In this document: positions 6,333 to 62,701 of the stretch, piece after piece
Layout: each line of letters opens with the position of its first letter
How positions within the stretch are numbered: the stretch's first letter is position 1
IMG/VR virus record: IMGVR_UViG_2695420859_000012
Strand: one strand, 5' to 3'
Length of the DNA stretch: 64,000 nt
Source: a virus
Taxonomy: Duplodnaviria > Heunggongvirae > Uroviricota > Caudoviricetes
Program-made: the position numbers and the translations under genes
Notes under the pieces: generated by a model
What the model was told of the DNA's origin: nothing
Databases searched by the model: none
Seen by the model: only the letters and a program-made list of their open reading frames with translations

Positions 6333-6449
6333 GTGTTTCTCCTTGTTGTGATTTGGCCGATGGCGCTATGCGCGTTGGGCTTTCGTTCATTCGTGGCTCT
6401 TTCGAGCTGTTAAATGATAGATCAGTACTTACTTATTATCTATCAAAAA

Positions 6450-8908: not shown

Positions 8909-8956
8909 TTCTAAGACTCACTAAACAAATTGTTTTCTTATCTTATAAATTAATTC

Positions 8957-12736: not shown

Positions 12737-12831
12737 GCGTTTTTCCTTTGTTCTCTAATGAGCGTTCAACTTCTTATATAAATATATCATTATATATCGT
12801 AAGTGGTTACTTATCGTTAAGGCTGTTTTGT

Positions 12832-14940: not shown

Positions 14941-15038
14941 GGCTAATCCTTTGTTATGAAAACAAATTATTTACTAGTGTGTTTAATGTAGCACTGCGCG
15001 AATAGGGAACTAAGCCATTCGCGCAGGGAGAAGAGGGG

Positions 15039-15251: not shown

Positions 15252-15457
15252 TCAATCAATCCATTCTAACTTATACTATGGTAAGGAATACTACTAAAAT
15301 TTATATCAATACTGAATACATTCATATCATATGCAAGTTAATTTTCTTACCTGTTTTGGGCTAATTTTTCTCCGTGCAATGGCCTTTAACCGGTCTTTTA
15401 AGTGCCTATCGAAAAAAATGATAATAGCTTTACAACCCTAACCTTTGATGTAATATC

Positions 15458-15471
15458 GGTAAGCACTTACC
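15458..15471. promoter_or_regulatory. Dyad GGTAAG-CA-CTTACC upstream of the XRE regulator gene
   Basis: 14-bp palindrome about 30 bp upstream of the ATG at 15503. Confidence 0.4.
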
Positions 15472-15502
15472 AGAGAGAATTGAACGCGCAAAGGTTGTAA
15501 CA

Positions 15503-15889
15503 ATGTCTGACAACAAGATTGAATTTATAGAAAGTCGCTATGCTGCTTTTATCGCAGGGCTGATTGAATCCTCACCTATGAGTCAGGCCCAAATAGCCAG
15601 ACTTATTGGTTATAAAAATGCCAACAACCTTTCTTTAATTAAAAGTGGCAAAATTCCTTTGCCTATCGATAAGGTTCGTCCGTTGGCGCTGGCGCTGGGT
15701 ATTGAGCCAAGTCGTCTTATGATGATGGTGCTGGAAGAACGCCAACCTGAACTCGCAGCATTTTTATACAAAGAAGGCACCGCTCCTCTTAACGAGGACG
15801 AAAAACAGGTTCTTGCTGCATATAACGAGCGATTCGGTAAAGAGAAAGGCGCATCACAAAAGGTTGTTGAGGCCATAAAGTCTCTATGA
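15503..15889 (+). CDS. HTH transcriptional regulator (XRE-like)
   Basis: HTH-like segment MSQAQIARLIGYKNANNLSLIKSGK; plus strand, 3' end overlaps recombinase 3' end. Confidence 0.6.
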   Translation: MSDNKIEFIESRYAAFIAGLIESSPMSQAQIARLIGYKNANNLSLIKSGKIPLPIDKVRPLALALGIEPSRLMMMVLEERQPELAAFLYKEGTAPLNEDEKQVLAAYNERFGKEKGASQKVVEAIKSL

Positions 15890-16987
15890 AAAATTTACAC
15901 GAATAAGCTCTGTTGATAGACGATCTCCCTTGAATTTGTGGTCAATTTCGTCTAAATCCGGTTGCTCTACGATTGATGCGATGTACGTCGAGAAACTTTC
16001 TAAGGCGTCTCGCATCTCGTCCATATAATCGTGCCGGTCGTAGACTCGATCTATCCCCTCAAGACTGTGGTTCATGATTTTGCGTGATACCTCCTGGCTT
16101 ATGCCTAATGCTGGGAAGTAACTACGCGCAGTGCGGCGCAAGTCTCGGGGTGTAAATGGCTCAAGCTCCATCAGTTCTGGTCGTTCCAGAATACGACGTA
16201 ATGCCTGGGCTATTGCCACTTTAGACATAGGAAGGTCTTTCCCGATTTTTTTATTCGAAGGCACGAGCCACTGGCTGCCTTTACCGTATTCGAACAACTC
16301 TTCAATGCATGTGCGCATTAATGAGCTTAAAGGCAGAGAATGCTCACGGGCAGATTTGTTCCTCTTGCCTTGATTCCAAACCCCACGCTTAAGATTGAAC
16401 TCACTTTTTTTAGCCCGCAGTACTTCGTCAGGTCGTCTTGCGGATACAAGACATAGCCTGGCCGCCCATTTTGTACCAGCACACACATTGAAGTAGTCCC
16501 ATATATTCCAGAACACCCATACCTCTGCGTCGGTTAGCTTCCGCTCGCGAGGTGTGGGCTTTGCGCCACCGGCAACTTTGTTAAGTGACATATCGTTTAA
16601 CGGTGACACGTCGATCATCCCCTGGAAGGCGCACCAGCTGAGGAACTGCTTCATCAGAGAGAAAACGCGGCGACCCATAACAATTTTGCCATCCAGTATT
16701 AGTGGGTTGACCAGTTGGTTCACCATGAACCTATTAATATCACTTACTTTTACATCGGCAATGTGCGGCAAAACATGTATCAAAATACAATGAACAGCGA
16801 TCTCTGGCCGACGTCTTGTTATCAGCAGAGATAAGCGAGTGAATAACATGAATGCGTCCGAGAATCTCATGTCATTGCTGACCTGGGAGATCATAACGGC
16901 CTGCATTTGAGATGCTCTTTCGAGATACTCAATCGCCTCTTTTGAGGTGTTCTCCGCAGCGCGTGCTCTGTCAAAGCTATTTTTCAT
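15884..16987 (-). CDS. Tyrosine site-specific recombinase / integrase family
   Basis: LVSARRPDEV (catalytic Arg box), RDLRRTARS (HxxR-box variant), NHSLEGIDRVYDRHDY (nucleophile Tyr region). Confidence 0.75.
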   Translation of the reverse strand: MKNSFDRARAAENTSKEAIEYLERASQMQAVMISQVSNDMRFSDAFMLFTRLSLLITRRRPEIAVHCILIHVLPHIADVKVSDINRFMVNQLVNPLILDGKIVMGRRVFSLMKQFLSWCAFQGMIDVSPLNDMSLNKVAGGAKPTPRERKLTDAEVWVFWNIWDYFNVCAGTKWAARLCLVSARRPDEVLRAKKSEFNLKRGVWNQGKRNKSAREHSLPLSSLMRTCIEELFEYGKGSQWLVPSNKKIGKDLPMSKVAIAQALRRILERPELMELEPFTPRDLRRTARSYFPALGISQEVSRKIMNHSLEGIDRVYDRHDYMDEMRDALESFSTYIASIVEQPDLDEIDHKFKGDRLSTELIRVNFS

Positions 16988-19914: not shown

Positions 19915-19990
19915 TTGGTGCCGGTTAACGGACTTGAACCGCTGGCCATTCGCTTACAAAGCGACTGCTCTACCAACTGAGCTAAACCGG
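19915..19990 (-). tRNA. tRNA-Thr (anticodon UGU), CCA encoded
   Basis: Own cloverleaf: acceptor GCCGGUU/AACCGGC, anticodon loop UUUGUAA, T-loop GGTTCAAGTCC; 76 nt. Confidence 0.65.
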
Positions 19991-19994
19991 CAAT

Positions 19995-20081
19995 TTGGTG
20001 GGGAGTGATGGAGTCGAACCACCCGAGTCGCCATGACAGTAGATTTACAGTCTACACCGCTACCTCTACGGACTAACTCCC
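19995..20081 (-). tRNA. tRNA-Tyr (anticodon GUA), type II, CCA encoded
   Basis: Acceptor GGGGAGU/ACUCCCC, anticodon stem GUAGA/UCUAC with loop CUGUAAA, long variable arm. Confidence 0.7.
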
Positions 20082-20086
20082 CTAAA

Positions 20087-20161
20087 TTGGCGATGGTGGG
20101 TGGATTCGAACCACCGACCAGTTGGTTAACAGCCAACTGCTCTACCGCTGAGCTACACCAT
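20087..20161 (-). tRNA. tRNA-Asn (anticodon GUU), CCA encoded
   Basis: Acceptor GAUGGUG/CACCAUC, anticodon stem GUUGG/CCAAC with loop CUGUUAA, T-loop GGTTCGAATCC. Confidence 0.75.
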
Positions 20162-20430
20162 CAATTCAGCACTGCCAGTATTTATTACTCAACAGTGCCA
20201 ATCGCGACGGTTTAGTTTCTGCCAGGAAACGCACCGCTACTTGCACTTTTCGTTAGTGCCAGACGCTTTCGACTTCGCTCAATAGTAGAAGGCAAAATCT
20301 TTAAGTAGATGATGTTTCTGAGGACAGCACCTACTTTGTAATTTATACAATGTGATGTATGGAATCATTTGTTGTGAAAACAGGCACCAATGGCAACAGT
20401 GGTTAAACCTACACAACAATCCCGTCTTCA

Positions 20431-25156: not shown

Positions 25157-26302
25157 ATGAAATACATAAAATCTTCATCGTTGCTGGCATTAACTTTGCT
25201 TTTTAGCTCTGGATTCGTTAACGCAGACAATAAACAAACGCTGATAGAAGCCGCTACCGCAGGGGATACCGCAGCACAAAGTGAGTTAGGGACAAATTAT
25301 TTTGATGGTATCAATGGTTTTGATAAGGATGTAGTTGAGGCCAAGAAGTGGATTGATCTCGCTGCAGAAAAGGGAGACAAAGTAGCATATTATGCACTTG
25401 GGGTTATGTACACATTTGGCGAGGGTGTAGATAAAGACTTAAATAAAGCAGTTGAGTACTACAAACTTGCGGGAGATGCTCGTGAAGGTAGAGCCTATAA
25501 CAATCTTGGTGCTATTTATCAAAAGGGGATGCTTGGTAAAGTAGATCATGCGCTCGCCATTAAATACTTCAAACTAGCCTCTGATGCCGGGTATGTTAAA
25601 GCTAGCTACCTTCTTGGTGCGTATTACCAATATGGTAAAGGTGTACAAAAGAGTTATAAAAAAGCTTTTACTTATTACAAAAAAGCGGCGGATCAAGGTA
25701 GTTCAGATGGCATGTTCGCATTAGGCACCTTATACGATGACGGTTTAGGTGTTAAACGCAACGATGCCGAAGCAATTAAGTGGTATAAAAAAGCTGCTGA
25801 ACTCGGAAACGCCGATGCCATGACAAATCTTGGCATTATGTATGAGTATGGTGAAGGGGTTAAAAAAGACTATAAAAAAGCAGCTGAGCTTTATCAGGCT
25901 GCTTGTGATAAAGAAGATAAAAATGGCTGTGATTACATTGCAGAACTGAAAGAAAGCGGCAAATATCGAGCGCCGGCTTCCAAAGCCAAAACAAAATCCG
26001 CCACCCAGCGACTTATTGCTAAATCCATTGATAAGGGCGTTAACGCTACATTTACCTGGCAGGGTGATGATGCTACCTTCACCGCTAATGATGGCAAAGT
26101 TGACTGCACCTTCCTGAAGGATTTTTCAGAGAAAGGAGGCAATCTGGCTACCTCGTTTGTTTGCACCGATAACGTTCAAATCATACTGAAGCAATTCAGA
26201 GATACCAAGAATGCCTACCTCGCGGTAATGACTGACAACTTCAACACAGAAGTTAAATCATTTTCGGTCAATGTGTACGTGACTAATACTGGTTCAAACT
26301 AA
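25157..26302 (+). CDS. Secreted Sel1-like repeat protein with unknown C-terminal domain
   Basis: Start re-called at ATG 25157 (MKYIKSSSLLALTLLFSSGFVNA); tandem Sel1-type repeats (KWYKKAAELGNADAMTNLGIMYEYGEGV...); about 115-aa non-repeat C-terminus. Confidence 0.7.
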   Translation: MKYIKSSSLLALTLLFSSGFVNADNKQTLIEAATAGDTAAQSELGTNYFDGINGFDKDVVEAKKWIDLAAEKGDKVAYYALGVMYTFGEGVDKDLNKAVEYYKLAGDAREGRAYNNLGAIYQKGMLGKVDHALAIKYFKLASDAGYVKASYLLGAYYQYGKGVQKSYKKAFTYYKKAADQGSSDGMFALGTLYDDGLGVKRNDAEAIKWYKKAAELGNADAMTNLGIMYEYGEGVKKDYKKAAELYQAACDKEDKNGCDYIAELKESGKYRAPASKAKTKSATQRLIAKSIDKGVNATFTWQGDDATFTANDGKVDCTFLKDFSEKGGNLATSFVCTDNVQIILKQFRDTKNAYLAVMTDNFNTEVKSFSVNVYVTNTGSN

Positions 26303-27547
26303 TGCTGCTATGCCTTTTACCTTGCTTAAAAGTTCAAGCTGTCGTGAGTAAGGTTTTGCGCAATAGTAGGCTTTGATAATCTGCCCCGGGGTCGCATCGC
26401 CGGGGTCGAGTCCTTCCTCGCCCAAACATGCAATTTTCACATTAAGACCGATACTGGTCAGTCGCCTGGCTGCGGCCATAGTGTTTCGTATAGCTTGCTT
26501 TTCACTATCCCACATCATGATCACATTACGTAATCCACGCGCCTTGAGCGTCAGGAACGCGCCCAACTGATCTTCTGCATCCTGAGTGGTGTTACCAGAT
26601 AGATGCATCCCGAACGTTCCTATTGGTTCCACGTAATCGCGTAATGTTTCTTCGTCAAAAATAGCTCGTTTGACCCCCATAACATCGAACGCCCCCTCAC
26701 AGACAACTACAGTCTGTTTGCCGACTGCATTGTGGCCGTTGTAGAGAAACTTACCTGAAGCTGGAAGCTGCATAGGAAAGAGGTAGCGGCGTTCTGCTGT
26801 ACCGGTAATGTCTCGTCCTTGAAATGTCTTCATTACCCCATCCAGATCGTAAACCGGTATCAGTATTCGCATATCGAAAATCTGTCCTTTAACCTGATCT
26901 GTATACGGATCTACATAAGCGTGCTTGCCTTCGACGCAGTATCGTAGGTCAAAATACTTTGCCATTTCAGGCGATATATTTCGTTCAACCAGATAGTCTG
27001 GAAGATGGCCATCTATAGGAAGATCGTAATGACGAGGGAGTGCAACTGGTCCCTCTAACTCGACTGTGCTTGCAAGCACTATCTCTTCTTTCTTTGGTGC
27101 CCACCCCTGGGAAAGAAGAGCGTTCTGCACATATTCCTCGAACTGTCGTCGTGATTTACCGCTGTAGTGCTTGAGGAAGACCAGCTTATTGAACTGAATC
27201 TCTTCGGGATGATCACCAGCGAAGCATTTACCGACGCCACTGGTCAGATTGAAATATACCTTCCAGTTGGAGCTGCCGCATACCGGACACTCCTTGATAT
27301 TCACTTCACGACCGCGAGTACTCACGCCTCCACGTCGATAAACGATACCTTCAGTATCCAACCATTGTTCAAAATCTAATTCGGTAATTAGCTCTTTCAG
27401 CTCGCTCACGATAATTCCACTTTTAACAGGCAATATTGTGACCAACCTAAATGTTGATATAACATAAAGGCTCATGTGTTTTTCTTTTGTGGTTTGGCAA
27501 AAGAAAAGTTGTTTCACCAATGAATCAAGCGTGGAGGTGTTCTCCAC
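26294..27547 (-). CDS. DNA primase (zinc finger + TOPRIM)
   Basis: CPVCGSSNWK...CFAGDHPE; TOPRIM-like VVVCEGAFDVMGV with downstream acidic residues; follows helicase gene. Confidence 0.7.
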   Translation of the reverse strand: MENTSTLDSLVKQLFFCQTTKEKHMSLYVISTFRLVTILPVKSGIIVSELKELITELDFEQWLDTEGIVYRRGGVSTRGREVNIKECPVCGSSNWKVYFNLTSGVGKCFAGDHPEEIQFNKLVFLKHYSGKSRRQFEEYVQNALLSQGWAPKKEEIVLASTVELEGPVALPRHYDLPIDGHLPDYLVERNISPEMAKYFDLRYCVEGKHAYVDPYTDQVKGQIFDMRILIPVYDLDGVMKTFQGRDITGTAERRYLFPMQLPASGKFLYNGHNAVGKQTVVVCEGAFDVMGVKRAIFDEETLRDYVEPIGTFGMHLSGNTTQDAEDQLGAFLTLKARGLRNVIMMWDSEKQAIRNTMAAARRLTSIGLNVKIACLGEEGLDPGDATPGQIIKAYYCAKPYSRQLELLSKVKGIAALV

Positions 27548-27556: not shown

Positions 27557-28897
27557 TTAGGTAACGTCTAAGATTCGCTCAATGAAGCGCATTTGTTCGA
27601 GGTTTTGTTTAACGCGAATGCTGATCCCTCCCTGCTGGTTACGCGAACCAGCAAAGTAGAGACGAGCCTCTCCTTTCGCTTCTTCTTCTTCGGTTTTGTT
27701 GATCGTTATTACCAGGTCAGCAATACGTACTTTTTCGATGTTGTCGGCAGCGTGCATCATTGTGGCAACTTCTGACGCGCCACCTTCACGGTTTGTTTGC
27801 GACGCCGTGATACCAGCAACGTTATGCTTGTCATAAAGAGCACGTAAATCGGTGTAGATACTACGAATGTTGGCGCGATCATCACGAAGGTCATAACTGG
27901 CACGCATCAAATCTGCGTAGTCGACAACAACCATGTCAGGCACCATGCCATTGGCTTTCATACTGTTAAGCATACGGTCCAGATCTGCCGGTGACATACT
28001 TCCTGACGGACGCTCAACAACCCACAAACTACCAATCCCCTTCGTGGCTCCCAACTCTGCCAACTTGCGATGAACTTCATCGCGCCGTTCCACCAGCTTG
28101 GACATTTCCGTCTCCGACAATCTTGCATCAAAACGGTCGGACAAAATGGTGGTGTGAACCTCCAGCGAGAGATACAGAACATTGTAGCCAGCAAGCGTAG
28201 CGTTTATGGAAAACTCACCCATTGCGGTCGATTTACCGGATTTAGCAAAACCCATGAAGAGCACCATTTCGCGCTTTGCCCAGCCTTTTTGGTACAGCAA
28301 TCTATCAAGCAGAGGGAGTCCAGTTGTAATGCTGTTTGGCACATACTCCTCTGAAGCCTCATATTCACGCGCTTTCAATCGCTCACTTGCGGAGGTGTAG
28401 TAGTCATAGATTCCGGTCGCTTCGTTCGAGCCTATCTGCTGAACCTTGGCCATGATTGCCATCGCCCCCTGAAAGTCGCCCTTCTCTTTCAGTTCAGCAG
28501 CTTTAATCAGAGCATCATCAAACGCTACACTTTTTGCGAATGTGGATACCTGGTCAACCATGTACGAGGTATCAGACAATTTTTCTGCAAGGATGCGCTT
28601 AAACGCAGCAACAACATCCGGGAAGAGTTCCTCACGGATGGTCTTATCGCGTTTCGCACGCTTAAGCATATCCAGAATCGCAGATGAAGAAGGCGCGCTC
28701 TTGTACATACGGTAATAGCCCGAAACCATATTAACCAATATGGCATTGGCCGCATTGGCAAATTGGCTAGGCACAACCAGATCTCCCGCACGAGTAAGAA
28801 ACTCGTGATCACGACAAAAATATGCCGTCAGTCTGTTCTGGAAATCTTCATCAAACTCTTCGGACAGCCCGCGTCCTGTATGGCAAAGTTCGGTCAT
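27557..28897 (-). CDS. Replicative DNA helicase, DnaB-like
   Basis: Walker A FMGFAKSGKST; ADLVITINK strand. Confidence 0.75.
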   Translation of the reverse strand: MTELCHTGRGLSEEFDEDFQNRLTAYFCRDHEFLTRAGDLVVPSQFANAANAILVNMVSGYYRMYKSAPSSSAILDMLKRAKRDKTIREELFPDVVAAFKRILAEKLSDTSYMVDQVSTFAKSVAFDDALIKAAELKEKGDFQGAMAIMAKVQQIGSNEATGIYDYYTSASERLKAREYEASEEYVPNSITTGLPLLDRLLYQKGWAKREMVLFMGFAKSGKSTAMGEFSINATLAGYNVLYLSLEVHTTILSDRFDARLSETEMSKLVERRDEVHRKLAELGATKGIGSLWVVERPSGSMSPADLDRMLNSMKANGMVPDMVVVDYADLMRASYDLRDDRANIRSIYTDLRALYDKHNVAGITASQTNREGGASEVATMMHAADNIEKVRIADLVITINKTEEEEAKGEARLYFAGSRNQQGGISIRVKQNLEQMRFIERILDVT

Positions 28898-28940
28898 GTG
28901 CTTTCCTTTGTTTTTTAAACAAATTGTTTTCTAGTATTAG

Positions 28941-29681
28941 TTAATTAGATAGGGGATCAATAAACCGCCGTGCTTCTTCCAGTTCTTCTGGAAAGTGGGC
29001 GGAAATAAGGCGCTCTGGAACGATTTCCATTAGCCAGATAGCGGAGAAAATTGCGCGTATGCGCTTGCTGCGGGGGATGGTGCGTAAACGCTCCAGAATC
29101 CACTCAAAATAGCTTTCCTGGATCGGGTTGAACTGCATGTCTCCCATATGCTTAAAGCTAACTAGAGAGTCATCCAGACGGGTTGTTGCGCGTCTGGCTA
29201 ATTTCTCTTCGAATATCTCAACCAGCTCTGGCTGCCATAAATGCTGTGGGCGCGGCAGCTTGTCCCACAGCCGTCGTGCAGCTGCGGAAAGAACGGTGGA
29301 GATAAAGTAGTCGTATGAGCAGCAATAGCGGTCAGCAAACTGGCGTGCTTTCCATAGAGACGTTTTATTGGCAGTCGACAACTCCTGATAAGGCAGGCGT
29401 TTTAACCCGGTGGTGAACGGAGCTGTTTCAAAGTGTTCGCGACCGTGCGTCAGCATGATATTTGAGTACTGACGTTTGTATGCCTCCGTAAAAAGACAGG
29501 TGGCCATGAGAGGATGCATGTCGCGGTAATCAAACCACTTCGTCTCGAAGAGTTCAGCCTCGTCTTTACAGCGCGACAAACCAATGTTTTCAGCGACCCA
29601 CTTGTCCATAACAGCGGTATTCCACTCTGTCATGAAGTCGTACTGGTCGTTGTCGATGGTATCGAAAAAGATTTGGCTCAT
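28941..29681 (-). CDS. Hypothetical protein, first gene of helicase/primase operon
   Basis: Start moved to ATG at 29679-29681 (AGGTGAG RBS; track ORF starts at GTG 29690); no recognisable motifs. Confidence 0.4.
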   Translation of the reverse strand: MSQIFFDTIDNDQYDFMTEWNTAVMDKWVAENIGLSRCKDEAELFETKWFDYRDMHPLMATCLFTEAYKRQYSNIMLTHGREHFETAPFTTGLKRLPYQELSTANKTSLWKARQFADRYCCSYDYFISTVLSAAARRLWDKLPRPQHLWQPELVEIFEEKLARRATTRLDDSLVSFKHMGDMQFNPIQESYFEWILERLRTIPRSKRIRAIFSAIWLMEIVPERLISAHFPEELEEARRFIDPLSN

Positions 29682-29797
29682 GTGGCTCACCTGGTAGGTA
29701 GTTACTTACTTATCACAATGAGCGGATGATAGCGACTGGTGGCAGTTTTTGGAAGTGGAAACGGAAGGGAGTTGTTCTGGTGGTGTCTTTTAAAAGA

Positions 29798-29852
29798 CCT
29801 GCTTCCGTATATATTTAATAAGTTACTTATTATTTATATATACAGAAGCAGG
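29798..29852. repeat. 55-bp palindromic element, copy 1
   Basis: cctgcttccgtatatatttaataagttacttattatttatatatacagaagcagg; identical to 62647-62701. Confidence 0.9.
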
Positions 29853-29963
29853 CATAACTTGTCGTCTTAGACGCCCAGAAGCTCTACACTTTGAGCCTGT
29901 TAAATTGATTAAAAACTTATGTGTAAAATAGAACGCATTAGTCAGTAGCAAAGAGATGCAATA

Positions 29964-30731
29964 ATGGACGATTTATCGGTATACGCGAGATCATTGGATA
30001 AGGCTAAATACTATGTTTACTGTCTCTATGATACAGAAGACAAGATGAAAAGACCGTTTTACATAGGAAAAGGCAAATCGACTCGTTGTCTCGATCACAT
30101 CAAGTATCCCGATGACTCTCCCAAATCCATGCGGATCAAAGAACTTTTGGCTAATAAAAAATTAGGCATAGATATACTTCGTCATGGTATGGATGAAACC
30201 ACAGCCAAACTTGTTGAGGCGACATGCATCGACCTTATGGGGGTCGGAGAGCTTACGAATAAGGTACGAGGAAGTGGTTCCATGATGGGCAGAATATCAC
30301 TGGACGCCTACCATCACTTAGTGCTGCAAGAGGAAACTGAAATTGCTCCTGAGCACGCCGGTCTTGCCTTCCTGCTAAACAGCACCTACAAGTCAGGAAT
30401 GTCCGCTCTGGCATTATATGAGGCTACGCGTGGCGTATGGGCAAAGGTTCCAAGAGACGAGAATCTCAAATATGCCTACGCTACATATGGTGGGCTGATA
30501 ATGGAAGTTTATCAGATTGAATGCTGGGTCAAAGCCGGTTCTCAGCAGTACTTTACAAGGGATATAGCTCTTGGCCCCGACACAAAACGTTATGAATTTG
30601 TTGGCAGAATAGCCGATGAGCATATTAGAAAACTGTATGTAGGCAAATTAATCAAGAAGCCACCAAGCTACGGTAGCCCTTTTGTGAAGGTTGGGGTGGT
30701 TAGGACTGAACATAGTGTTAGCGCGGCATAA
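29964..30731 (+). CDS. GIY-YIG nuclease-domain protein (possible free-standing homing endonuclease or cargo nuclease)
   Basis: N-terminal YYVYCLYD...PFYIGKGKSTR; about 150-aa unknown C-terminal region. Confidence 0.6.
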   Translation: MDDLSVYARSLDKAKYYVYCLYDTEDKMKRPFYIGKGKSTRCLDHIKYPDDSPKSMRIKELLANKKLGIDILRHGMDETTAKLVEATCIDLMGVGELTNKVRGSGSMMGRISLDAYHHLVLQEETEIAPEHAGLAFLLNSTYKSGMSALALYEATRGVWAKVPRDENLKYAYATYGGLIMEVYQIECWVKAGSQQYFTRDIALGPDTKRYEFVGRIADEHIRKLYVGKLIKKPPSYGSPFVKVGVVRTEHSVSAA

Positions 30732-30749
30732 AGCTGACACTGTAGTTAT

Positions 30750-30786
30750 GCATTGGCGCAATGTACGCGCCAATGCATGATTTTTA
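30750..30786. terminator. Bidirectional intrinsic terminator between GIY-YIG gene and parG-like gene
   Basis: gcattggcgc-aatgtac-gcgccaatgc followed by atgattttta. Confidence 0.7.
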
Positions 30787-31143
30787 ACCTTTCTTCATCA
30801 ACTCTCGTTTGATTTCATCGGTACGCATCGTGACATCGGCAGCGGTGATCGCCTCATTCAATTTCACGATGTCCTCGATTTCCTGCGGTGACTTCTCTGC
30901 CAGATGGAAAATGGCTGCTCGAATCACGTCAGAACGAGTGAACTTCTCGAAGCGAGGGATGAACTTCATCATCTCCAGCAGTTCGAAGTATTCGTCCTCC
31001 AGTGACATTGTGCGGCTTTTAATTTTCTCTTTGCCACGAGTCGGGCGTCCCTGTGGTCTGACTGGTTGGCGCAAAGGAGTTGTGTTCTTAGCCGGTGCAT
31101 CAGGCTCTTTGCGCTTTGCTAGGTCACCCATTTTCATGGACAT
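30784..31143 (-). CDS. Small partition-operon partner protein (ParG/ParB-like)
   Basis: Immediately downstream of parA (ATGA overlap); basic N-terminal tail. Confidence 0.5.
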   Translation of the reverse strand: MSMKMGDLAKRKEPDAPAKNTTPLRQPVRPQGRPTRGKEKIKSRTMSLEDEYFELLEMMKFIPRFEKFTRSDVIRAAIFHLAEKSPQEIEDIVKLNEAITAADVTMRTDEIKRELMKKG

Positions 31144-31811
31144 TATTCTTCTTCCTCCAGACTCAACAGATAATCTACAAATTCTTCAAACTCGGCTTCC
31201 GCCTTTTTGTCGCGCTCGCTACCGGTCATTTCAAAGATAGAACGACCAGACTCTTCCGCATCATCATAGACGTTGCGGTTATATAGATTGACTGGCGCAG
31301 ACTCGATGCCAAACGTCTCAACAATCTCTTTAGCCGCCAGAATGCGAGACACTTGTGATGGCAAAGCCGGGCACTGGTTCATGACCGCGCGGACCTTCAC
31401 TTTATCGTTTACATTACGAACATTGTCGATAATAGGATCGATGTCACGCAGAGATTTCAAATCACGACGCTTAGGACGAAGCGGGATAATGATAACGTCG
31501 GCCATCAGCATCGCTTGTCGCTGAATTTCGGAGTCAAAGCCACCAGCATCTACCACTACATACTCAGCTCTACCCTGAAGCGATTTTAGGTGCTTAATGA
31601 TGTCATCCTGAACGTATGCAAAAGGAATCAGCTCAAGGTCTTCGTTCTGTCGACGGTCTTCACACCAGCTCGTTGTCGTGCGCTGAATATCTATATCGGT
31701 GATATAAACCTTCTTCTTCTTTTTGACTTTCAGGCAAACGGCAATTTGCTGGGCAACGGTGGATTTGCCAGGCCCGCCCTTTGTGCCGCCAACCACAAAG
31801 ATCTTGGTCAT
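31143..31811 (-). CDS. parA: ParA/ParF-family partition ATPase
   Basis: Deviant Walker A GGTKGGPGKST; 222 aa. Confidence 0.85.
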   Translation of the reverse strand: MTKIFVVGGTKGGPGKSTVAQQIAVCLKVKKKKKVYITDIDIQRTTTSWCEDRRQNEDLELIPFAYVQDDIIKHLKSLQGRAEYVVVDAGGFDSEIQRQAMLMADVIIIPLRPKRRDLKSLRDIDPIIDNVRNVNDKVKVRAVMNQCPALPSQVSRILAAKEIVETFGIESAPVNLYNRNVYDDAEESGRSIFEMTGSERDKKAEAEFEEFVDYLLSLEEEE

Positions 31812-31959
31812 TGGAGAGTTCCCTTTGCGTATATAATTATCGTCTGAAACAACTTGTTTTCTTATATGTGATATAGCCTAAATGCCTACGGCTGTGGTGT
31901 AAAGGTTAAATGGTAGGTGCTGCCTTAGAATTTTTAGGCGAGAATCAATGGCTGTTAAC

Positions 31960-31990
31960 AAAAAAGGCGACCAAAGTCGCCTTATTTTTA
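31960..31990. terminator. Intrinsic terminator
   Basis: aaggcgac-caaa-gtcgcctt followed by atttttaa. Confidence 0.65.
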
Positions 31991-32740
31991 ATCTTTTAGG
32001 TATAAACCTACTGGAGTTCTTGTTTTGCGGGAGATGATAAGTACGATAAATTTCTGAACGTTAACTTGCACTTTGTTTGGGAGCCAAGAGCTTAACTCTG
32101 CATCAAGCAACAATCCTCTGTTCCACGGCAAAAATCCGGTTTCTTTCCCCATCCCGTACTCGCCTAACACATCCTCGAACGTTTCTGTTTTGGCATTGTA
32201 TATACGCACATCGCCGGTTCGCATGAGAGGCCCTGCCCAGATCTTAGCACCAGGAATGGTTTGTGTATCGTCGCAGACTAAATGCTCATACCAATGAAGA
32301 AGAAAGAGATAGGTACGGTGACACAATCCTCGCTGACGACGCTCTCTGACAGTTTCGACACCGGCTACCTGGTAACATTCGATCTCATTACCGTCTTCAA
32401 CAAAACTATATTCACGCAGAGCTATCCTACCAGCGATCGTATTTTTGTTTTCGTCCAGAAGCCCGGACTGGAGCACCTCTTTGATAATCTCTTCTTCAGG
32501 GGCATCTTCATCCGCTCGATCTAAGATGAATTCGCTCAGGTCGCCTTGGTCGCGCGCACCTACAAGTTCCATAGAGACATACAGGCAAATGTCATCTTCT
32601 GGTTCAATGATTTCAATTTCTGAGATTTTATAGAGGGAGGCTTCATTGATAAGAAAGCCAAAACGAACAACACGAGTCTCCCCTTTATGAGGAAACTCGC
32701 TTAGATCTTTTGAATATGCGCTATCTAGTGTAGGAGCCAT
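31988..32740 (-). CDS. Hypothetical protein
   Basis: 250 aa, overlaps upstream ORF. Confidence 0.4.
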   Translation of the reverse strand: MAPTLDSAYSKDLSEFPHKGETRVVRFGFLINEASLYKISEIEIIEPEDDICLYVSMELVGARDQGDLSEFILDRADEDAPEEEIIKEVLQSGLLDENKNTIAGRIALREYSFVEDGNEIECYQVAGVETVRERRQRGLCHRTYLFLLHWYEHLVCDDTQTIPGAKIWAGPLMRTGDVRIYNAKTETFEDVLGEYGMGKETGFLPWNRGLLLDAELSSWLPNKVQVNVQKFIVLIISRKTRTPVGLYLKD

Positions 32741-33108
32741 TTTGTAGCAGAATCATCAGCCTTAACCGTGCTGACAATGCTACCATGATTGCGTAAGAAG
32801 CGGCGAATAGAATGTTCAATAACCTCCGAAAAAGCCTCGATAAAACGAGACAGCTCAGGGTACTGTTTAGCTGGCTTGACTACAAAACGAACACGACCAT
32901 TCAGGTAAATTGCTTCAGCTAATGGCTTCACGCTTGCACCAGCGCGCTCAACATCGTCTTTGAAGGTAACGATGAAGCGTGAGTCTTCCGGTTCAATAGC
33001 GTCATTATTGAGCTTACGTACTTCAAGCTTGTGCTGATTCAGCACATGAGTCTCGATAATACTCGTGCAATCGCGAATAGTTTGTATAGAACGTTTCTCG
33101 TTCAGCAT
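32725..33108 (-). CDS. Hypothetical protein
   Basis: 127-aa ORF. Confidence 0.4.
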   Translation of the reverse strand: MLNEKRSIQTIRDCTSIIETHVLNQHKLEVRKLNNDAIEPEDSRFIVTFKDDVERAGASVKPLAEAIYLNGRVRFVVKPAKQYPELSRFIEAFSEVIEHSIRRFLRNHGSIVSTVKADDSATKWLLH

Positions 33109-33332
33109 GTGTCCACCTTAGCCGTTAACACAAGTGTCATTGCGGCACCCCTCTCGGGGTTGAAGGCTACGAGGATGCGTAGCCTGTATGTGCCCACTTA
33201 CGTGGATGCCTAATAAATCTACATCAAATTACTAAATGATTCAACATGAGCTTGAGTGAACAGGCGTGTATATGAGTGAAGATGCCATCTTTAGGATAAA
33301 AGGTAAACTGAGACCACTCATCAATCATCGAC

Positions 33333-33560
33333 TCAGTTCAGGTGCCCCCACTCACACAACCTTTCACCTATCGTATTGTGGATAAGCAACTGTCGCTCCG
33401 TTTCCTCAGTCATAAAATCCTCTCTACTCACATAAATAGGATTTGCAGCATCGCAGAATAGCACGCCTGGAGCCTGCGTCTTAATCACGCACCCATTTAT
33501 CAAACAGCTCGCGATGAACACCAGAGGCATCTTTTTGCCGCACTTCATTAACCGTTTCAT
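33333..33560 (-). CDS. Outer-membrane spanin (Rz1-like lipoprotein), overlapping the i-spanin gene
   Basis: Frame overlapping 33481..33732; internal start MKRLMKCGKKMPLVFIASC with lipobox IASC; start choice approximate. Confidence 0.45.
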   Translation of the reverse strand: MKRLMKCGKKMPLVFIASCLINGCVIKTQAPGVLFCDAANPIYVSREDFMTEETERQLLIHNTIGERLCEWGHLN

Positions 33561-33732
33561 TTTTGACATCCACTGTGCTTTGAAGTCGTTTTCTGTCTTC
33601 CTGTTTTGCCTTCTCTTCCATTGCTCGTCGCGCCGCATTTCCGCCCATCGTGTAAGCGCCGACAAGAACGAAAAGAACGGCAGCCAGCGTAATCAAAGCA
33701 ACTTTTAGCTTTGTCATCAGGCTGCCTAGCAT
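33481..33732 (-). CDS. Inner-membrane spanin (Rz-like)
   Basis: 83 aa; N-terminal TM helix then charged segment. Confidence 0.5.
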   Translation of the reverse strand: MLGSLMTKLKVALITLAAVLFVLVGAYTMGGNAARRAMEEKAKQEDRKRLQSTVDVKNETVNEVRQKDASGVHRELFDKWVRD

Positions 33733-33733
33733 A

Positions 33734-34453
33734 TTAGACCATCCCTTTCTGGTGTTTTCTTACCTGCGACCAGGCAATGAATCCTGCCACAACAATAGTG
33801 GCAATACCGAAGATGATGCGTACTGTATCCCCGCTAGAGATATGACCTTGTGCTTTATCCATAGCAGCGGAAACCTGCGGCATAACATCGGCAAGCTGCG
33901 CCAGACCAATACCTGCTGTGACAGTTGCGCCTGCGGTTTCTTTAGTTACAGGAACAGCCTTCACGGTTTTCACCGGCTTAACGACGCCGGCTCGACGCAG
34001 ACCTTCCTCAATAACTTCTGCCGCATACCAGGTGTTCAGCGTTTTTAGTGGACCTCGACCATTCTCGTGGCGAATGATTGCCTCAACCAAAGGTCGAAGG
34101 ATGTCGTAATCATGCAGATCGATGATCATGTCTGCGGTTACACCAACGGCTTTAGACACCTCATTAATGTAGGCGTCAGTGTTGTTTTCATTCGGCGGTG
34201 CCCAACGTTCAATAACTTCACGAATGGTATCGATACTTGAGCCGTCTTTTGCGCGACGTTTGTCGTGGTAGGTAATTAGAGTCACCGCCAGCGCACGAAT
34301 CCCCCAAACAGGGTCTTTAAACGTGCAAAAGCGCGGTTCGTCTGGATTCGCAACCAGACCTTGCCACGGTGATCCTTTATCAAGATTACCGGGGTTATTA
34401 TTACGAATGCCTCTCGGAGTCTTCATCCTTGATCTCCTGTTATTGCAGTCCAT
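33734..34453 (-). CDS. Putative endolysin with C-terminal hydrophobic segment
   Basis: Assigned by position between holin-like and spanin genes; enzymatic family not identified by eye. Confidence 0.45.
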   Translation of the reverse strand: MDCNNRRSRMKTPRGIRNNNPGNLDKGSPWQGLVANPDEPRFCTFKDPVWGIRALAVTLITYHDKRRAKDGSSIDTIREVIERWAPPNENNTDAYINEVSKAVGVTADMIIDLHDYDILRPLVEAIIRHENGRGPLKTLNTWYAAEVIEEGLRRAGVVKPVKTVKAVPVTKETAGATVTAGIGLAQLADVMPQVSAAMDKAQGHISSGDTVRIIFGIATIVVAGFIAWSQVRKHQKGMV

Positions 34454-45591: not shown

Positions 45592-46403
45592 GTCTCATCT
45601 CCCTTGAGCAAGTCTCTGTGACGCAAGTGATGCGTCGTATGTTTCTGATACATTCCGCCGTAATAAGCACGACAACTTAGGCGGTCGATCTGGTGATGAA
45701 GAATCATTCCATCGCCGATATAAACCGCGCAGTGGTCAGGCATTTTCCCGTATTGGATAAAGAATACGTCCCCACGTTGAGGCTCTGTTCCGGGCGCAAG
45801 ACGCACCAATCCCTCGTTACGGTAGTTCTGATCGAGAATGTCGTTATCGCCGGTGTACCACGATGGAATATGCAGGTGTGCGTTCGGGTTTAGTTCGACG
45901 TTAAACTCACGCTTCAAATAGTCCCGACACAACATCCAGCAATCAAATACGCCAAATACATACGGTCTGCCCAGGTATGGCATTTCGAAACCATCAGGTG
46001 TGATCACATTCATCTCGCTAAAATGGAAAGGGGCATCTCCCTCAACATTCTTGCGAATAGCCAGAATCATCCACGGAACTTCCGTCGCTTCGCAGCCTGC
46101 ACGATCGGCATCAGATGCTTCTGCTGATTCATCAGTATGTGAATGCCAGATTGCGATAACATCACCCGCATCCTCTGCCGCCATAATGTCGTCAACGTGC
46201 ATTACAAAAGTGTTCTGCGGGTTCTCCGAAACATTCCGCGCTTCCATAAAGCGATATTTGTCGCCATTAGTTCTAACCAGAAAGCCACACGCTTCATTAG
46301 GGTAGCGATTTATGGCGCAGAGATAGATTTGCTGCATAACGTCAGAGCCAAGCTCAGGGATTGCTTTATTACCCATACCGCGTAGCTCCAATAAATCCGC
46401 CAA
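45579..46403 (-). CDS. Tail assembly protein (gpK-like, JAB/MPN + NlpC/P60-type)
   Basis: HSHTDESAEASDADRAG metalloprotease-like motif; position between gpL-like and gpI-like. Confidence 0.6.
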   Translation of the reverse strand: MADLLELRGMGNKAIPELGSDVMQQIYLCAINRYPNEACGFLVRTNGDKYRFMEARNVSENPQNTFVMHVDDIMAAEDAGDVIAIWHSHTDESAEASDADRAGCEATEVPWMILAIRKNVEGDAPFHFSEMNVITPDGFEMPYLGRPYVFGVFDCWMLCRDYLKREFNVELNPNAHLHIPSWYTGDNDILDQNYRNEGLVRLAPGTEPQRGDVFFIQYGKMPDHCAVYIGDGMILHHQIDRLSCRAYYGGMYQKHTTHHLRHRDLLKGDETCLS

Positions 46404-47067
46404 AATGGATCACACCGTCGGCAAAATAATTCCGACGCGCATTACAGGCGTCATAACGTTTTGTGCAGTAATCCGCACCAGACATAGACGTCTGCTGGTT
46501 ATTTTTGTCGAAATATGGACCGGTATAGCCGCATTCTGGCCCTCGGTATTTCCACGGGCAGGTGTTTTTAATGATCTGACGATACGGCAGTTGCACCCCC
46601 ATCAAATCGAACACACTGGACAATTCAAACTCGACAACCTGATGAGTTTCGAGAGTTTTCTGTTCGATAAACCACATTTCATCCGGGAAATGTTGGTTTG
46701 GATCTGCTGTTGGGTTGCCGTCTTTAAAATTAACGGCATCGAGGAAGCGAGCCAGCGTCATCTTGCGAATAATGCGGCAGCCAACAAGATCGTCGTTCGC
46801 CTGAACTTCCGCAGAGACGGTTCCGGCAAAGTTCGATACCTGAATTTTTGGACGTGGCAACGTTCCCTGGCCCGTTTTGTCAAAGCCTGATGCTTTTATT
46901 GGCCACGGCTCGTATGTCACTCCTTGCCAGACGACCGGTTGCATCAGTTCGTTTGTTCCGGCGTGGAAGAATAGCTTCCCCCCTGAAGTTGTGTTCGACA
47001 TATCCAGTACGAACAACTCAATGAGTGCAGAGGGAGATAAGCTCTGAATATCAGCTTTAATTCCCAT
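46369..47067 (-). CDS. Minor tail protein (lambda gpL-like)
   Basis: C-terminal LARFLDAVNF...CPWKYRGPECGYTGP...CNARRNYFADGVIHFGGFIG matches lambda gpL as recalled; start moved to M12 behind AAGGA. Confidence 0.8.
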   Translation of the reverse strand: MGIKADIQSLSPSALIELFVLDMSNTTSGGKLFFHAGTNELMQPVVWQGVTYEPWPIKASGFDKTGQGTLPRPKIQVSNFAGTVSAEVQANDDLVGCRIIRKMTLARFLDAVNFKDGNPTADPNQHFPDEMWFIEQKTLETHQVVEFELSSVFDLMGVQLPYRQIIKNTCPWKYRGPECGYTGPYFDKNNQQTSMSGADYCTKRYDACNARRNYFADGVIHFGGFIGATRYG

Positions 47068-47149
47068 TGTTTCATCCTTGAAATAAGTAGGCGCTAACAT
47101 CCTGTCAGCGCCACAATGATAGTAAATTAGTACTTACTTATCCAGATAC

Positions 47150-47485
47150 TTAAGCCTCAAATACTTGTCTGAATGTAGCAGTTAAGACACAGTACCCCTG
47201 ATATCGCTTGACCGTATGACTGTCACATACAACTACAATCTGCTTGCCTCTTGGATTAACCCAATAGAACGATTCAACGCCTGATCGCTCAGTCAGGAAG
47301 TCATCGATTGCATTAATTTCGTTGTATGATCTGGTAAAGGTTAACGACCATTCTTCTTTAATACGATTAAGACCTTGAGCCTGTCGCTGCTCGTAGTCAT
47401 CACCAAAATTAAGTACCGTTACATTCGGTTTTACGCTTTTTTCAGATTCGTAATCTGGATACCAATTAAACGTTTGTCTTTCCAT
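47150..47485 (-). CDS. Minor tail protein (gpM-like)
   Basis: 111 aa between tape measure and gpL-like gene. Confidence 0.6.
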   Translation of the reverse strand: MERQTFNWYPDYESEKSVKPNVTVLNFGDDYEQRQAQGLNRIKEEWSLTFTRSYNEINAIDDFLTERSGVESFYWVNPRGKQIVVVCDSHTVKRYQGYCVLTATFRQVFEA

Positions 47486-58105: not shown

Positions 58106-58130
58106 CTATCAATTCCCTTTGATTTAGATG

Positions 58131-59018: not shown

Positions 59019-59039
59019 AAAAATTCCCTTTGTTACTTA

Positions 59040-60614: not shown

Positions 60615-60640
60615 TTGAATAACCTTAGATAATTACCTAC

Positions 60641-62529: not shown

Positions 62530-62646
62530 AGATCCCTCTAAAACACACAGAGCGCGTCCATGCGCTCTAAAACAACTTGTTTACTGCATTTTCTAACCAA
62601 CTTGTTTTCTGGGTTGTTTAATTAGGTCTGGGCATGTCTTATTAAG

Positions 62647-62701
62647 CCTGCTTCCGTATATATTTAATAAGTTACTTATTATTTATATATACAGAAGCAG
62701 G
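62647..62701. repeat. 55-bp palindromic element, copy 2
   Basis: Identical to 29798-29852; between terS start and the 88-aa gene. Confidence 0.9.

What the first reader, a model, noticed from the sequence alone, without database searches (positions are those of the whole stretch)
30784..31811. Plasmid-type ParA partition operon inside a phage genome (phage-plasmid lifestyle)
A 222-aa ParA/ParF-type ATPase with deviant Walker A (KGGPGKST) and a small downstream partner sit between the lysis and replication modules. Together with the tyrosine recombinase this points to maintenance as an extrachromosomal plasmid prophage rather than a purely lytic or integrating phage.
Basis: partly seen in the sequence, partly recalled or inferred. 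Interest (0 to 1): 0.55.

Follow-up and report, generated by a model that had tools for sequence, protein, structure and literature searches.

The report
Known SSU5-type phage-plasmid partition operon

Summary
A 222-aa ParA ORF (31143-31811, minus strand, Walker A KGGPGKST) overlaps by TAATG a 119-aa ORF (30784-31143). The pair lies between the lysis genes and the DnaB helicase/primase genes.

The window is 100% identical to the circular 113-kb E. coli plasmid pSJC33-2, a member of the SSU5 phage-plasmid supergroup. The cassette occurs in 264 of 5,426 complete E. coli genomes, always on plasmids and never on a chromosome.

ParA is a small type Ib ATPase. Its best solved relative is ParF of TP228. 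Its best NCBIfam model is 'ParA family partition ATPase', although the score is below that model's cut-off.

The partner is annotated 'hypothetical' everywhere. It is homologous (hhalign 98.9%) to the small proteins encoded after related ParAs. Those proteins score just below threshold as CopG-type ribbon-helix-helix proteins. It also has a disordered tail with a conserved MGDLAKR motif.

No centromere repeat array was found. The only conserved symmetric element in the par promoter is AAACAAGTTGTTT. The same motif sits at about 20 other promoters of the element, and what binds it is unknown.

Verdict: real, interpretation supported, already known, low interest.

The parts
31143..31811 (-). parA: a 222-aa type Ib (ParF-like) Walker-type partition ATPase. 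The deviant Walker A KGGPGKST is at nt 31758-31781. The subfamily motif P-x-RPKRRD is at residues 110-117.
   Evidence: ParF 4dzz, E 3e-10, residues 9-199 against 8-189; phrog_164, E 2e-51; NF041546, E 2e-33; 92% identical to SSU5_033.
30784..31143 (-). The parB-like adaptor gene (119 aa). The N-terminal tail is disordered and carries the conserved MGDLAKR motif (nt 31111-31134). A basic linker follows. The putative ribbon-helix-helix core IKSRTMSLEDEY...FTRSDVIRAAI is at nt 30889-31023. Two further helices lie at the C-terminus.
   Evidence: AF2, pLDDT above 90 for residues 48-117; residues 1-47 disordered; hhalign 98.9% to partners of related ParAs; RHH_1 and CopG hits below threshold.
31139..31148 (-). 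The TAATG stop/start overlap between parA and the adaptor gene, which implies translational coupling.
   Evidence: conserved in SSU5.
31875..31903 (-). The predicted par promoter: -35 TTTACA (31898-31903), a 17-nt spacer, and -10 TAGGCT (31875-31880).
   Evidence: The same -35 / 17 nt / -10 geometry is conserved in five diverged lineages. It is a prediction only, and the generic scan did not list it.
31847..31859 (-). The 13-bp palindrome AAACAAGTTGTTT (extended form AGAAAACAAGTTGTTT), about +8 to +21 from the predicted start and 36 nt before the parA ATG. It is the candidate operator. It is only a speculative centromere.
   Evidence: (6 sites in the window against 0.51 expected).
31812..31921 (-). 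The upstream non-coding part of the mobile par cassette. Similarity to SSU5, Klebsiella and most E. coli relatives stops at about 31918-31921. Any cis site carried with the cassette should therefore lie here or inside the genes.
   Evidence: query 1-1135 is matched in most records.
30748..30778 (.). A 12-bp-stem hairpin between the convergent adaptor gene and the GIY-YIG gene, probably a terminator. It lies outside the conserved cassette.
   Evidence: -22.6 kcal/mol, z -4.2; not conserved in SSU5.
15884..16987 (-). A tyrosine recombinase gene (367 aa). A role in multimer resolution is inferred and was not tested.
   Evidence: A syntenic 'site-specific integrase' is annotated in pMT1, Moellerella and Klebsiella relatives.

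Best explanation
The locus is the active-partition operon of an SSU5-supergroup phage-plasmid. Such an element is a temperate siphovirus whose prophage is a low-copy circular plasmid of about 110 kb.

ParA is a small type Ib deviant-Walker-A ATPase of the ParF kind. The translationally coupled 119-aa product is its adaptor. It most likely dimerises through a ribbon-helix-helix core to bind DNA at or near the par promoter. Its conserved, disordered N-terminal tail (MGDLAKR, with nearly invariant L8 and K10) most likely contacts ParA and stimulates its ATPase. ParA-ATP on the nucleoid would then move or space the adaptor-bound plasmid copies so that each daughter cell inherits one.

Shown here:
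- gene structure;
- family relationships;
- plasmid-only location;
- synteny.

Inferred from the ParF/ParG and delta/omega systems:
- DNA binding;
- ATPase stimulation;
- autoregulation;
- the centromere.
For: Plasmid identity and location:
- 100% identity and collinearity to the circular plasmid pSJC33-2 over 29000-34000 and 39001-64000; 99.8-99.9% over 95% of 1-25000 to sister plasmids.
- 737 plasmid records match, and 703 of them are non-mobilizable.
- 265 of 265 placements in complete E. coli genomes are on plasmids, with one copy per genome.
- The RepB-family initiator is elsewhere on the same plasmid.

ParA:
- Full-length match to ParF and to NF041546 'ParA family partition ATPase'.
- PHROG ParA-like partition protein.

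The operon and the partner:
- TAATG coupling.
- A parA plus small-ORF pair is conserved at the same place (after the lysis genes, before dnaB) in Klebsiella, Cronobacter, Xenorhabdus and Moellerella elements.
- The partner profile aligns with the partners of related ParAs from Acinetobacter, Pseudomonas and Shewanella at 98.9% probability and E 2e-17.
- Members of both sets hit Pfam RHH_1 or RHH_3 at E 1e-3 to 4e-3.
- The best solved match of the relatives' profile is CopG over its whole length.
- NCBIfam aCcr1 hit at E 2e-4; that aCcr1 is an RHH protein is from my own knowledge.
- AF2 gives a disordered N-terminal 47 residues and a confident helical core.

Literature and neighbourhood:
- The SSU5 supergroup is described as phage-plasmids.
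- Relatives carry toxin-antitoxin modules next to parA.
Against: - No repeat array typical of type Ib centromeres is present in or next to the cassette. More distant ParA/RHH pairs do have such arrays.
- The window protein itself gives no Pfam or PDB hit.
- Comparison with ParG, using a sequence recalled from memory, was negative.
- ParA scores 115.5 bits against an NF041546 cut-off of 180.
- No experimental test of this par locus was found in the searched literature.
Confidence: 0.85

Rival explanations
1. This extends the main model. The ribbon-helix-helix partner is also a global regulator. It would bind the AGAAAACAAnTTGTTT palindrome at the par promoter and at about 20 other promoters of the element. 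Those promoters serve dnaB, cobT, nrdA, terS and other genes. The dispersed sites would act as both operators and centromeres, as with KorB on RK2, omega on pSM19035, or the dispersed SopB sites of N15.
For: - The palindrome is the only conserved symmetric element in the par promoter.
- It occurs 6 times in the window against 0.51 expected, and no shuffle out of 100 reached 6.
- There are about 19-20 sites per element, all 15-45 nt before start codons and just after a -10 box.
- The half-site GAAAACAA is present upstream of parA in all 8 lineages compared. These include Xenorhabdus and Moellerella, which lack the dispersed motif.
- The putative DNA-reading strand KSRT(M/V)S is invariant or nearly so.
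- The region around the CI-like HTH regulator gene has no copy of the motif.
- A 13-bp symmetric site suits a CopG-type protein. This last point is from my own knowledge.
Against: - pMT1 has lost the cassette but keeps the palindromes. This is weak evidence, because pMT1 is evolutionarily young.
- Moellerella has the cassette but no dispersed motif.
- Morganella lacks GAAAAC upstream of parA.
- The resemblance to the Acinetobacter iteron is incidental, because the triplet concerned varies between strains.
- No covariation test was possible, because the protein strand and the motif are both constant wherever both occur.
Confidence: 0.2
2. The real centromere-binding partner of this ParA is one of the two ParB/Srx N-terminal-domain proteins encoded about 33 kb away, just beyond the window end. 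The 119-aa protein would then be only a transcriptional regulator.
For: - Two ParB-domain genes are conserved in the backbone of E. coli, Klebsiella, Moellerella and pMT1 elements.
- One surveillance study uses an SSU5 'parB' as a marker gene.
Against: - These genes are retained in pMT1, which lacks this ParA and uses a different ParB-family partition gene set.
- They are not linked to parA.
- The 119-aa gene is translationally coupled to parA. It moves with parA as a cassette with sharp boundaries.
- It is paired with this ParA subfamily far outside phage-plasmids.
- Small ParAs without an N-terminal domain normally work with small adaptors encoded next to them. This is from established knowledge of type Ib systems.
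Confidence: 0.06
3. The ATPase is a MinD/MipZ-like positioning protein that the phage uses for something other than plasmid partition. Some RefSeq records do name it 'division plane positioning ATPase MipZ'.
For: - Pfam MipZ hit at 50 bits.
- PGAP names in some records.
Against: - The MipZ match covers only the P-loop half of the model (positions 2-150 of 262).
- MinD models score 29.5 bits against a cut-off of 212.9, while the ParA partition model gives E 2e-33 over its full length.
- ParF is the best solved relative.
- The C-terminus has no amphipathic helix.
- The gene is always on low-copy plasmids.
Confidence: 0.04
4. The window is an integrated prophage, and the ParA gene is a relic.
For: A tyrosine recombinase gene is present.
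Against: - There are 0 chromosomal placements out of 265.
- Window 29000-34000 and 39001-64000 are collinear with circular plasmid pSJC33-2, and 1-25000 with sister plasmid records at 95% coverage.
- ParA and its partner are intact and conserved.
Confidence: 0.01

Closest known systems
SSU5 / pHCM2-type phage-plasmid par locus (SSU5_033 'ParA-like partition protein' plus SSU5_034)
   Same: - It is the same cassette: ParA is 92% identical and the DNA is 86.6% identical from the partner's stop codon to about 110 bp upstream of parA.
- It has the same position between the lysis and replication genes.
   Different: - The flanking genes differ, because the cassette is mosaic.
- SSU5_034 is annotated from an internal Met, which omits the conserved N-terminal motif.
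- Here a GIY-YIG gene lies next to the operon.
ParF/ParG/parH of plasmid TP228 (type Ib partition)
   Same: - Both have a small deviant-Walker-A ATPase of about 200-220 aa. ParF is the best solved match at E 3e-10.
- Both have a small adaptor gene immediately downstream.
- The adaptor has a flexible N-terminal tail and a putative RHH core.
   Different: - No sequence similarity to ParG was detectable (the ParG sequence was recalled from memory).
- The adaptor is longer (119 against 76 aa), with a long helix1-helix2 loop and two extra C-terminal helices.
- No array of short repeats like parH lies upstream.
- ParA carries a subfamily-specific RPKRRD motif.
delta/omega of pSM19035 and IncC/KorB of RK2 (partition adaptors that are also global regulators)
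   Same: This applies only under the speculative reading. In that reading a partition adaptor's binding motif is found at many promoters of the replicon.
   Different: - Binding was not shown.
- Omega sites are heptad arrays.
- KorB is an HTH ParB, not an RHH protein.
P1 ParA/ParB/parS and N15 SopA/SopB (partition systems of the classical phage-plasmids)
   Same: They share the biological role of active partition of a plasmid prophage.
   Different: Those are type Ia systems. They have a large ParA with an N-terminal regulatory domain, an HTH ParB, and parS/sopC sites. Here ParA has no N-terminal domain and the adaptor is not a ParB-family protein.

Membership tests
Type Ib (small, ParF-like) ParA partition ATPases | Deviant Walker A KGGxxK[ST] with the signature lysine | tested here: met
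   K11-GGPGK-S17-T18. G8, G9, K11, G12, G13, G15, K16 and S17 are invariant across 17 homologues.
Type Ib (small, ParF-like) ParA partition ATPases | About 200-230 aa with no N-terminal HTH or regulatory domain | tested here: met
   The protein is 222 aa. It aligns end to end with ParF (8-189 of 206) and with NF041546 (6-202 of 203).
Type Ib (small, ParF-like) ParA partition ATPases | Score above the curated cut-off of NCBIfam NF041546 'ParA family partition ATPase' (equivalog) | tested here: not met
   The score is 115.5 bits against a cut-off of 180. It is therefore a distinct subfamily of the class and not a member of that equivalog. Pfam AAA_31, CbiA and ParA thresholds are passed.
Type Ib (small, ParF-like) ParA partition ATPases | Small non-ParB adaptor gene immediately downstream in the same operon | tested here: met
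   There is a TAATG overlap. The pairing is conserved in all relatives examined.
Type Ib (small, ParF-like) ParA partition ATPases | Centromere of iterated short repeats next to the operon | tested here: inconclusive
   No array was found. There is only one 13-bp palindrome and a weak TAGGC direct pair in the promoter. Arrays do exist in Acinetobacter and Pseudomonas relatives.
Type Ib (small, ParF-like) ParA partition ATPases | Stabilises a low-copy replicon, with ATPase stimulated by the adaptor | not testable with these tools
   This needs stability and ATPase assays.
Ribbon-helix-helix (CopG/Arc/MetJ) DNA-binding proteins, as in ParG/omega adaptors | Strand-helix-helix core recognisable by family models | tested here: inconclusive
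   - The window protein gives no hit.
- Distant family members P0129 and P0125 hit RHH_1 at E 1.2e-3 and 3.9e-3, just under the cut-off.
- Partners of related ParAs hit RHH_1 or RHH_3 at E 1e-3.
- CopG is the best PDB hit at E 0.065.
- aCcr1 hit at E 2e-4.
- The family is linked to those relatives by hhalign at 98.9%.
Ribbon-helix-helix (CopG/Arc/MetJ) DNA-binding proteins, as in ParG/omega adaptors | Fold match of a structural model to solved RHH proteins | tested here: not met
Ribbon-helix-helix (CopG/Arc/MetJ) DNA-binding proteins, as in ParG/omega adaptors | Flexible N-terminal tail carrying a conserved basic residue that acts on ParA | tested here: inconclusive
   Residues 1-47 have low pLDDT. 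L8 is invariant and K10 nearly so. The motif M-G-D/G-L-x-K is shared with the GLxGLKK motif of the relatives. Its function was not tested.
SSU5-supergroup phage-plasmids | Tailed-phage structural, packaging and lysis genes on a circular, non-integrated replicon with a plasmid initiator | tested here: met
   - Terminase, portal, tape measure, tail, endolysin and spanin genes are present.
- The identical plasmid is circular and carries a RepB-family initiator.
- All 265 of 265 placements are on plasmids.
- The group is described in PMC7969092.
SSU5-supergroup phage-plasmids | Production of infective virions by this particular element | not testable with these tools
   Related isolated phages exist, such as SSU5, Cyrano and PhiR41_1.
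MinD / MipZ positioning ATPases | Full-length match to MinD or MipZ models, and for MinD a C-terminal membrane-targeting helix | tested here: not met
   MinD scores 29.5 bits against a cut-off of 212.9. MipZ matches only model positions 2-150 of 262. The C-terminus is LLSLEEEE.
Type Ia ParABS (P1, F, N15) | Large ParA with an N-terminal DNA-binding domain, and an HTH ParB partner | tested here: not met
   ParA is 222 aa with the P-loop at residue 11. The partner has no ParB-family hit.

The most novel reading that the evidence does not exclude
The 119-aa ribbon-helix-helix adaptor is both the partition adaptor and the master regulator of the prophage. It would bind the AGAAAACAAnTTGTTT palindrome at its own promoter and at about 20 promoters of replication, nucleotide-metabolism and packaging genes. 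Plasmid segregation and silencing of the lytic programme would then be run by one protein through dispersed operator/centromere sites.
Probability: 0.15. Interest if true: 0.65.

Novelty: already known. Interest (0 to 1): 0.2.

Why it matters
SSU5-type phage-plasmids are common in clinical E. coli, Salmonella, Shigella and Klebsiella, and they carry resistance genes. Their stable inheritance depends on loci like this one. That the element is a phage-plasmid with a ParA gene is established, so the finding adds nothing at that level.

Three modest additions came out of the check.
- The 'hypothetical' partner can be annotated as an RHH-type adaptor, and its start codon corrected in SSU5.
- Unlike its relatives, the cassette has no obvious repeat-array centromere.
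- The par promoter shares a palindromic element with about 20 other promoters of the element. This is a testable lead to how plasmid maintenance and phage gene expression are coordinated.

Tried and rejected
- Direct Pfam and PDB sequence searches with the partner and with its family profile gave nothing.
- hhalign against ParG, using a sequence recalled from memory, gave 0.3% probability.
- The first AF2 model was poor (pLDDT 62), and the Foldseek search with it gave nothing.
- Repeat searches and k-mer counts in the parA upstream region found no array.
- I first took the 13-bp palindrome for the par-specific operator or centromere. I dropped that as a firm claim when it turned out to be dispersed.
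- The motif is retained in pMT1, which lacks the cassette.
- The motif is not dispersed in Moellerella, which has the cassette.
- A second Klebsiella lineage had both the cassette and the motif, so it gave no discrimination.
- A scan of IMG/VR for the motif gave a mix of SSU5-like contigs and chance hits and was uninformative.
- The apparent similarity to the Acinetobacter iteron (GGAAAAC) was rejected, because that triplet varies between strains.
- Rfam found only three tRNAs in the window and nothing at the par locus.

Full report
**Observation.**
ORF 31143..31811 (-) encodes 222 aa beginning MTKIFVVGGTKGGPGKST. KGGPGKST is residues 11-18 (nt 31758-31781). ORF 30784..31143 (-) encodes 119 aa, and its ATG overlaps the parA stop codon as TAATG. 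The ParA ORF matches PHROG 164 'ParA-like partition protein' at E 2e-51, and Pfam AAA_31, MipZ, CbiA, ParA and VirC1 above their thresholds.

On the upstream side of the operon lie the endolysin gene (33734-34453) and an Rz-like spanin gene (33481-33732), then two genes of unknown function. On the downstream side lie a convergent GIY-YIG gene, a gene of unknown function, the DnaB-like helicase gene (27557-28897) and the primase gene (26294-27547). A tyrosine recombinase gene is present at 15884-16987.

**What the window is.**
Window 29000-34000 and 39001-64000 are 100% identical to the circular 113,446-bp E. coli plasmid pSJC33-2. Window 1-25000 matches sister plasmids at 99.8-99.9%.
- 737 PLSDB records match the par region, and 703 of them are non-mobilizable.
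- Eleven phage records also match, among them the isolated phages SSU5, Cyrano and PhiR41_1.
- In 5,426 complete E. coli genomes the cassette occurs in 264. All 265 placements are on plasmids and none is on a chromosome, with a median of one copy per genome.
- The rest of pSJC33-2 carries a RepB-family plasmid initiator.

This is the SSU5 supergroup, which the literature already describes as phage-plasmids (PMC7969092).

**ParA.**
The best solved relative is the type Ib partition ATPase ParF of TP228 (E 3e-10, residues 9-199 against 8-189 of 206). The best NCBIfam model is NF041546 'ParA family partition ATPase' (E 2e-33, model positions 6-202 of 203). Its score of 115.5 bits is below the equivalog cut-off of 180. 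MinD models score 29.5 bits at best. The MipZ Pfam match, which explains the 'MipZ' name in some RefSeq records, covers only the P-loop half of the model. There is no N-terminal domain, and the C-terminus is acidic.

Seventeen homologues down to 36% identity share GGxKGGxGKS, DxDxQxT..W, DxGG.D, P-x-RPKRRD, QCP..P and RN.YDD. I place it in the type Ib class as a distinct subfamily.

**The partner.**
Every source annotates it as hypothetical (phrog_5111 'unknown function'). Its family is very narrow, with 25 clusters in 5.8 billion proteins and 19 representatives in 1.84 billion.

The alignment shows three conserved parts:
- an N-terminal motif M-G-D/G-L-x-K, with L8 invariant and K10 nearly so;
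- a variable linker followed by a basic stretch;
- a highly conserved core, IKSRT(M/V)S-x-E-D/E-E-Y/F ... (F/L)(T/S)RSD(V/I)xRAA(I/L).

The window protein alone gives no Pfam or PDB hit. With a 17-sequence alignment AF2 gives pLDDT above 90 for helices 48-59, 70-82, 86-97 and 101-117, and a disordered N-terminal 47 residues. Monomer fold searches were not informative.

The decisive step was comparative. A scan of 185,579 species genomes for this ParA subfamily found 493 relatives. In most of the kept loci an ORF of about 60-125 aa starts at or shortly after the ParA stop. Many of these ORFs have an MxGLxGLKK or MSLxDLKRK N-terminus and a (K/R)xxTF(S/T)L...(K/R)S(x)(I/L)(I/V)R core. The evidence linking them to the SSU5 partner and to the RHH fold is:
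- A profile of these partners aligns with the SSU5-type partner profile at 98.9% probability, E 2e-17, over 103 columns.
- Members of both sets hit Pfam RHH_1 or RHH_3 at E 1e-3 to 4e-3, just under the cut-off.
- The best solved match of the relatives' profile is CopG over its whole 45 residues.
- The window protein has a weak match to the aCcr1 family. I know aCcr1 to be an RHH protein; that is from my own knowledge.

I conclude with about 0.8 confidence that the partner is a ribbon-helix-helix adaptor of the ParG/omega functional type, with a longer helix1-helix2 loop and two extra C-terminal helices. It is not detectably related to ParG itself (the ParG sequence was recalled from memory).

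**The cassette and its cis sites.**
Similarity to SSU5 (86.6%), to Klebsiella elements (about 80%) and to most E. coli relatives starts at the partner's stop codon and ends at about 31918-31921, some 107-110 bp upstream of parA. The unit that recombines between backbones is therefore promoter plus parA plus partner.

Alignment of the upstream regions from five alignable lineages shows a conserved promoter geometry. The -35 box is TTTACA (31898-31903), the spacer is 17 nt, and the -10 box is TAGGCT (31875-31880). The sequence ACATATAAG-AAAACAAGTTGTTT follows, and the 13-bp palindrome is at 31847-31859.

No iterated repeat array is present. More distant ParA/RHH pairs do have textbook arrays upstream of parA:
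- six or seven 22-bp iterons in Acinetobacter;
- 9-bp ATACCGTGC repeats in Pseudomonas;
- eight GTTATGTAA repeats in another Acinetobacter.

The centromere of the SSU5-type cassette therefore remains unidentified.

**The palindrome is not specific to par.**
AAACAAnTTGTTT, allowing one mismatch, occurs six times in the window against 0.51 expected, and none of 100 shuffles reached six. The six sites lie upstream of:
- an HNH endonuclease gene (site at 8923);
- the CobT-like gene (site at 14960);
- dnaB (site at 28917);
- parA (site at 31847);
- the putative small terminase gene, which has two sites (62570 and 62595).

The whole plasmid has about 19 sites. All are 15-45 nt before a start codon and just downstream of a -10-like box, with a constant 5' extension AGA on the gene's strand. 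A second Klebsiella lineage has 20 sites.

What binds the motif is unknown.
- Evidence for the partner:
  - it is the only conserved symmetric element in the par promoter;
  - the half-site GAAAACAA lies upstream of parA in all eight lineages compared, including Xenorhabdus and Moellerella;
  - the region around the CI-like regulator gene has no copy.
- Evidence against, or neutral:
  - pMT1 keeps the sites but lacks the cassette, although pMT1 is young;
  - Moellerella has the cassette but no dispersed motif;
  - Morganella lacks the half-site.

I give the 'adaptor is also a global regulator' reading 0.15-0.2.

**Rivals.**
The two ParB/Srx-domain genes of the backbone lie just beyond the window end. 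They are unlikely partners. They persist in pMT1 without this ParA and are unlinked to it. The 119-aa gene, in contrast, is translationally coupled to parA and co-inherited with it. The MinD/MipZ and integrated-prophage readings are contradicted, as set out above.

**Tyrosine recombinase.**
The gene is present and syntenic in pMT1, Moellerella and Klebsiella relatives. Because the element is never chromosomal, multimer resolution as with Cre of P1 is a reasonable inference. Nothing here tests it.

**Verdict.**
The finding is real and its interpretation is supported. It describes an already known kind of element, and the sequence is identical to a deposited plasmid. Interest is low. The residual value lies in the annotation of the partner, the missing centromere, and the shared promoter palindrome.

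Noticed in passing
window 8923-8935, 14960-14972, 28917-28929, 31847-31859, 62570-62582, 62595-62607: A dispersed palindrome AAACAAnTTGTTT (extended form AGAAAACAAnTTGTTT) lies just downstream of -10-like boxes and 15-45 nt before start codons. There are 6 sites in the window against 0.5 expected, and about 19-20 per SSU5-type plasmid. It looks like the operator set of a regulon. What binds it is unknown.
   Followed up: partly
window 7008-11320 (-): The DNA polymerase III alpha gene is split into two ORFs. One is 8957-11320 (PHP, NTPase and finger domains). The other is 7008-8177 (HHH_6 domain). An HNH/NUMOD3 homing-endonuclease ORF (8174-8908) sits between them. In pMT1 dnaE is a single ORF.
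   Followed up: no
window 1691-4030 (-): A RecA-like gene of 779 aa is interrupted by an intein that carries a LAGLIDADG endonuclease domain.
   Followed up: no
window 19919-20162 (-): Three clustered tRNA genes (Rfam tRNA, 41.6-75.5 bits).
   Followed up: no
window 15252-15889: An HTH transcriptional regulator gene (15503-15889, +, phrog_8) lies next to the integrase gene. The intergenic region upstream of it has its own palindrome, GGTAAGCACTTACC, at 15458. That region has no copy of the dispersed motif. This is a candidate lysogeny switch.
   Followed up: partly
window 29964-30731 (+) and 30748-30778: A LEM-3-like GIY-YIG gene is convergent with the par operon. A 12-bp-stem hairpin (-22.6 kcal/mol, z -4.2) lies between them and is followed by a T-run on the + strand. 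SSU5 has neither the gene nor the hairpin at this position.
   Followed up: partly
L002 (SSU5) 5999-6360; pSJC33-2 12363-12716: The partner gene start is annotated inconsistently. SSU5_034 starts at an internal Met (96 aa), and PGAP starts at Met3. The full 119-aa ORF with the TAATG overlap and the conserved MGDLAKR motif is intact in both.
   Followed up: yes
window about 62642-62709: A stretch of about 66 bp upstream of the putative small terminase gene recurs at 2-7 places per SSU5-like plasmid. In pYY76-1-1 it lies in the intergenic region upstream of the GIY-YIG gene. It is probably a repeated promoter segment.
   Followed up: partly
window 31988-33108 and the same slot in relatives (L214, L219, phage Cyrano): The slot between the lysis genes and parA is variable. 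Here it holds two genes of unknown function (phrog_3307 and phrog_2594). Relatives hold toxin-antitoxin modules there: DUF1778/GNAT KacT-type in Cyrano and pYY76-1-1, and Phd/ParE plus VapBC in Photorhabdus.
   Followed up: no
L022, L029, L034, L039, L044, L051 (upstream of parA): Related ParA/RHH pairs in Acinetobacter and Pseudomonas have clear repeat arrays upstream of parA. These are 22-bp AGGAAnnnGTCCA iterons, 9-bp ATACCGTGC repeats, and eight copies of GTTATGTAA. This ParA subfamily is widespread in Gammaproteobacteria, and some copies are on chromosomes of Alteromonas.
   Followed up: partly
pSJC33-2 record 46130-47478 (just beyond window end) and 58115-61406: Two ParB/Srx N-terminal-domain genes sit next to an ABC-ATPase-like gene in the phage backbone. 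The plasmid also carries chromosomal-type metG and apbC genes.
   Followed up: no
window 11501-14940 (-): A MoxR-like AAA_5 ATPase gene (11501-12736) is paired with a CobT/VWA gene (12832-14940). The pair is conserved in pMT1, and its role in the phage is unknown.
   Followed up: no
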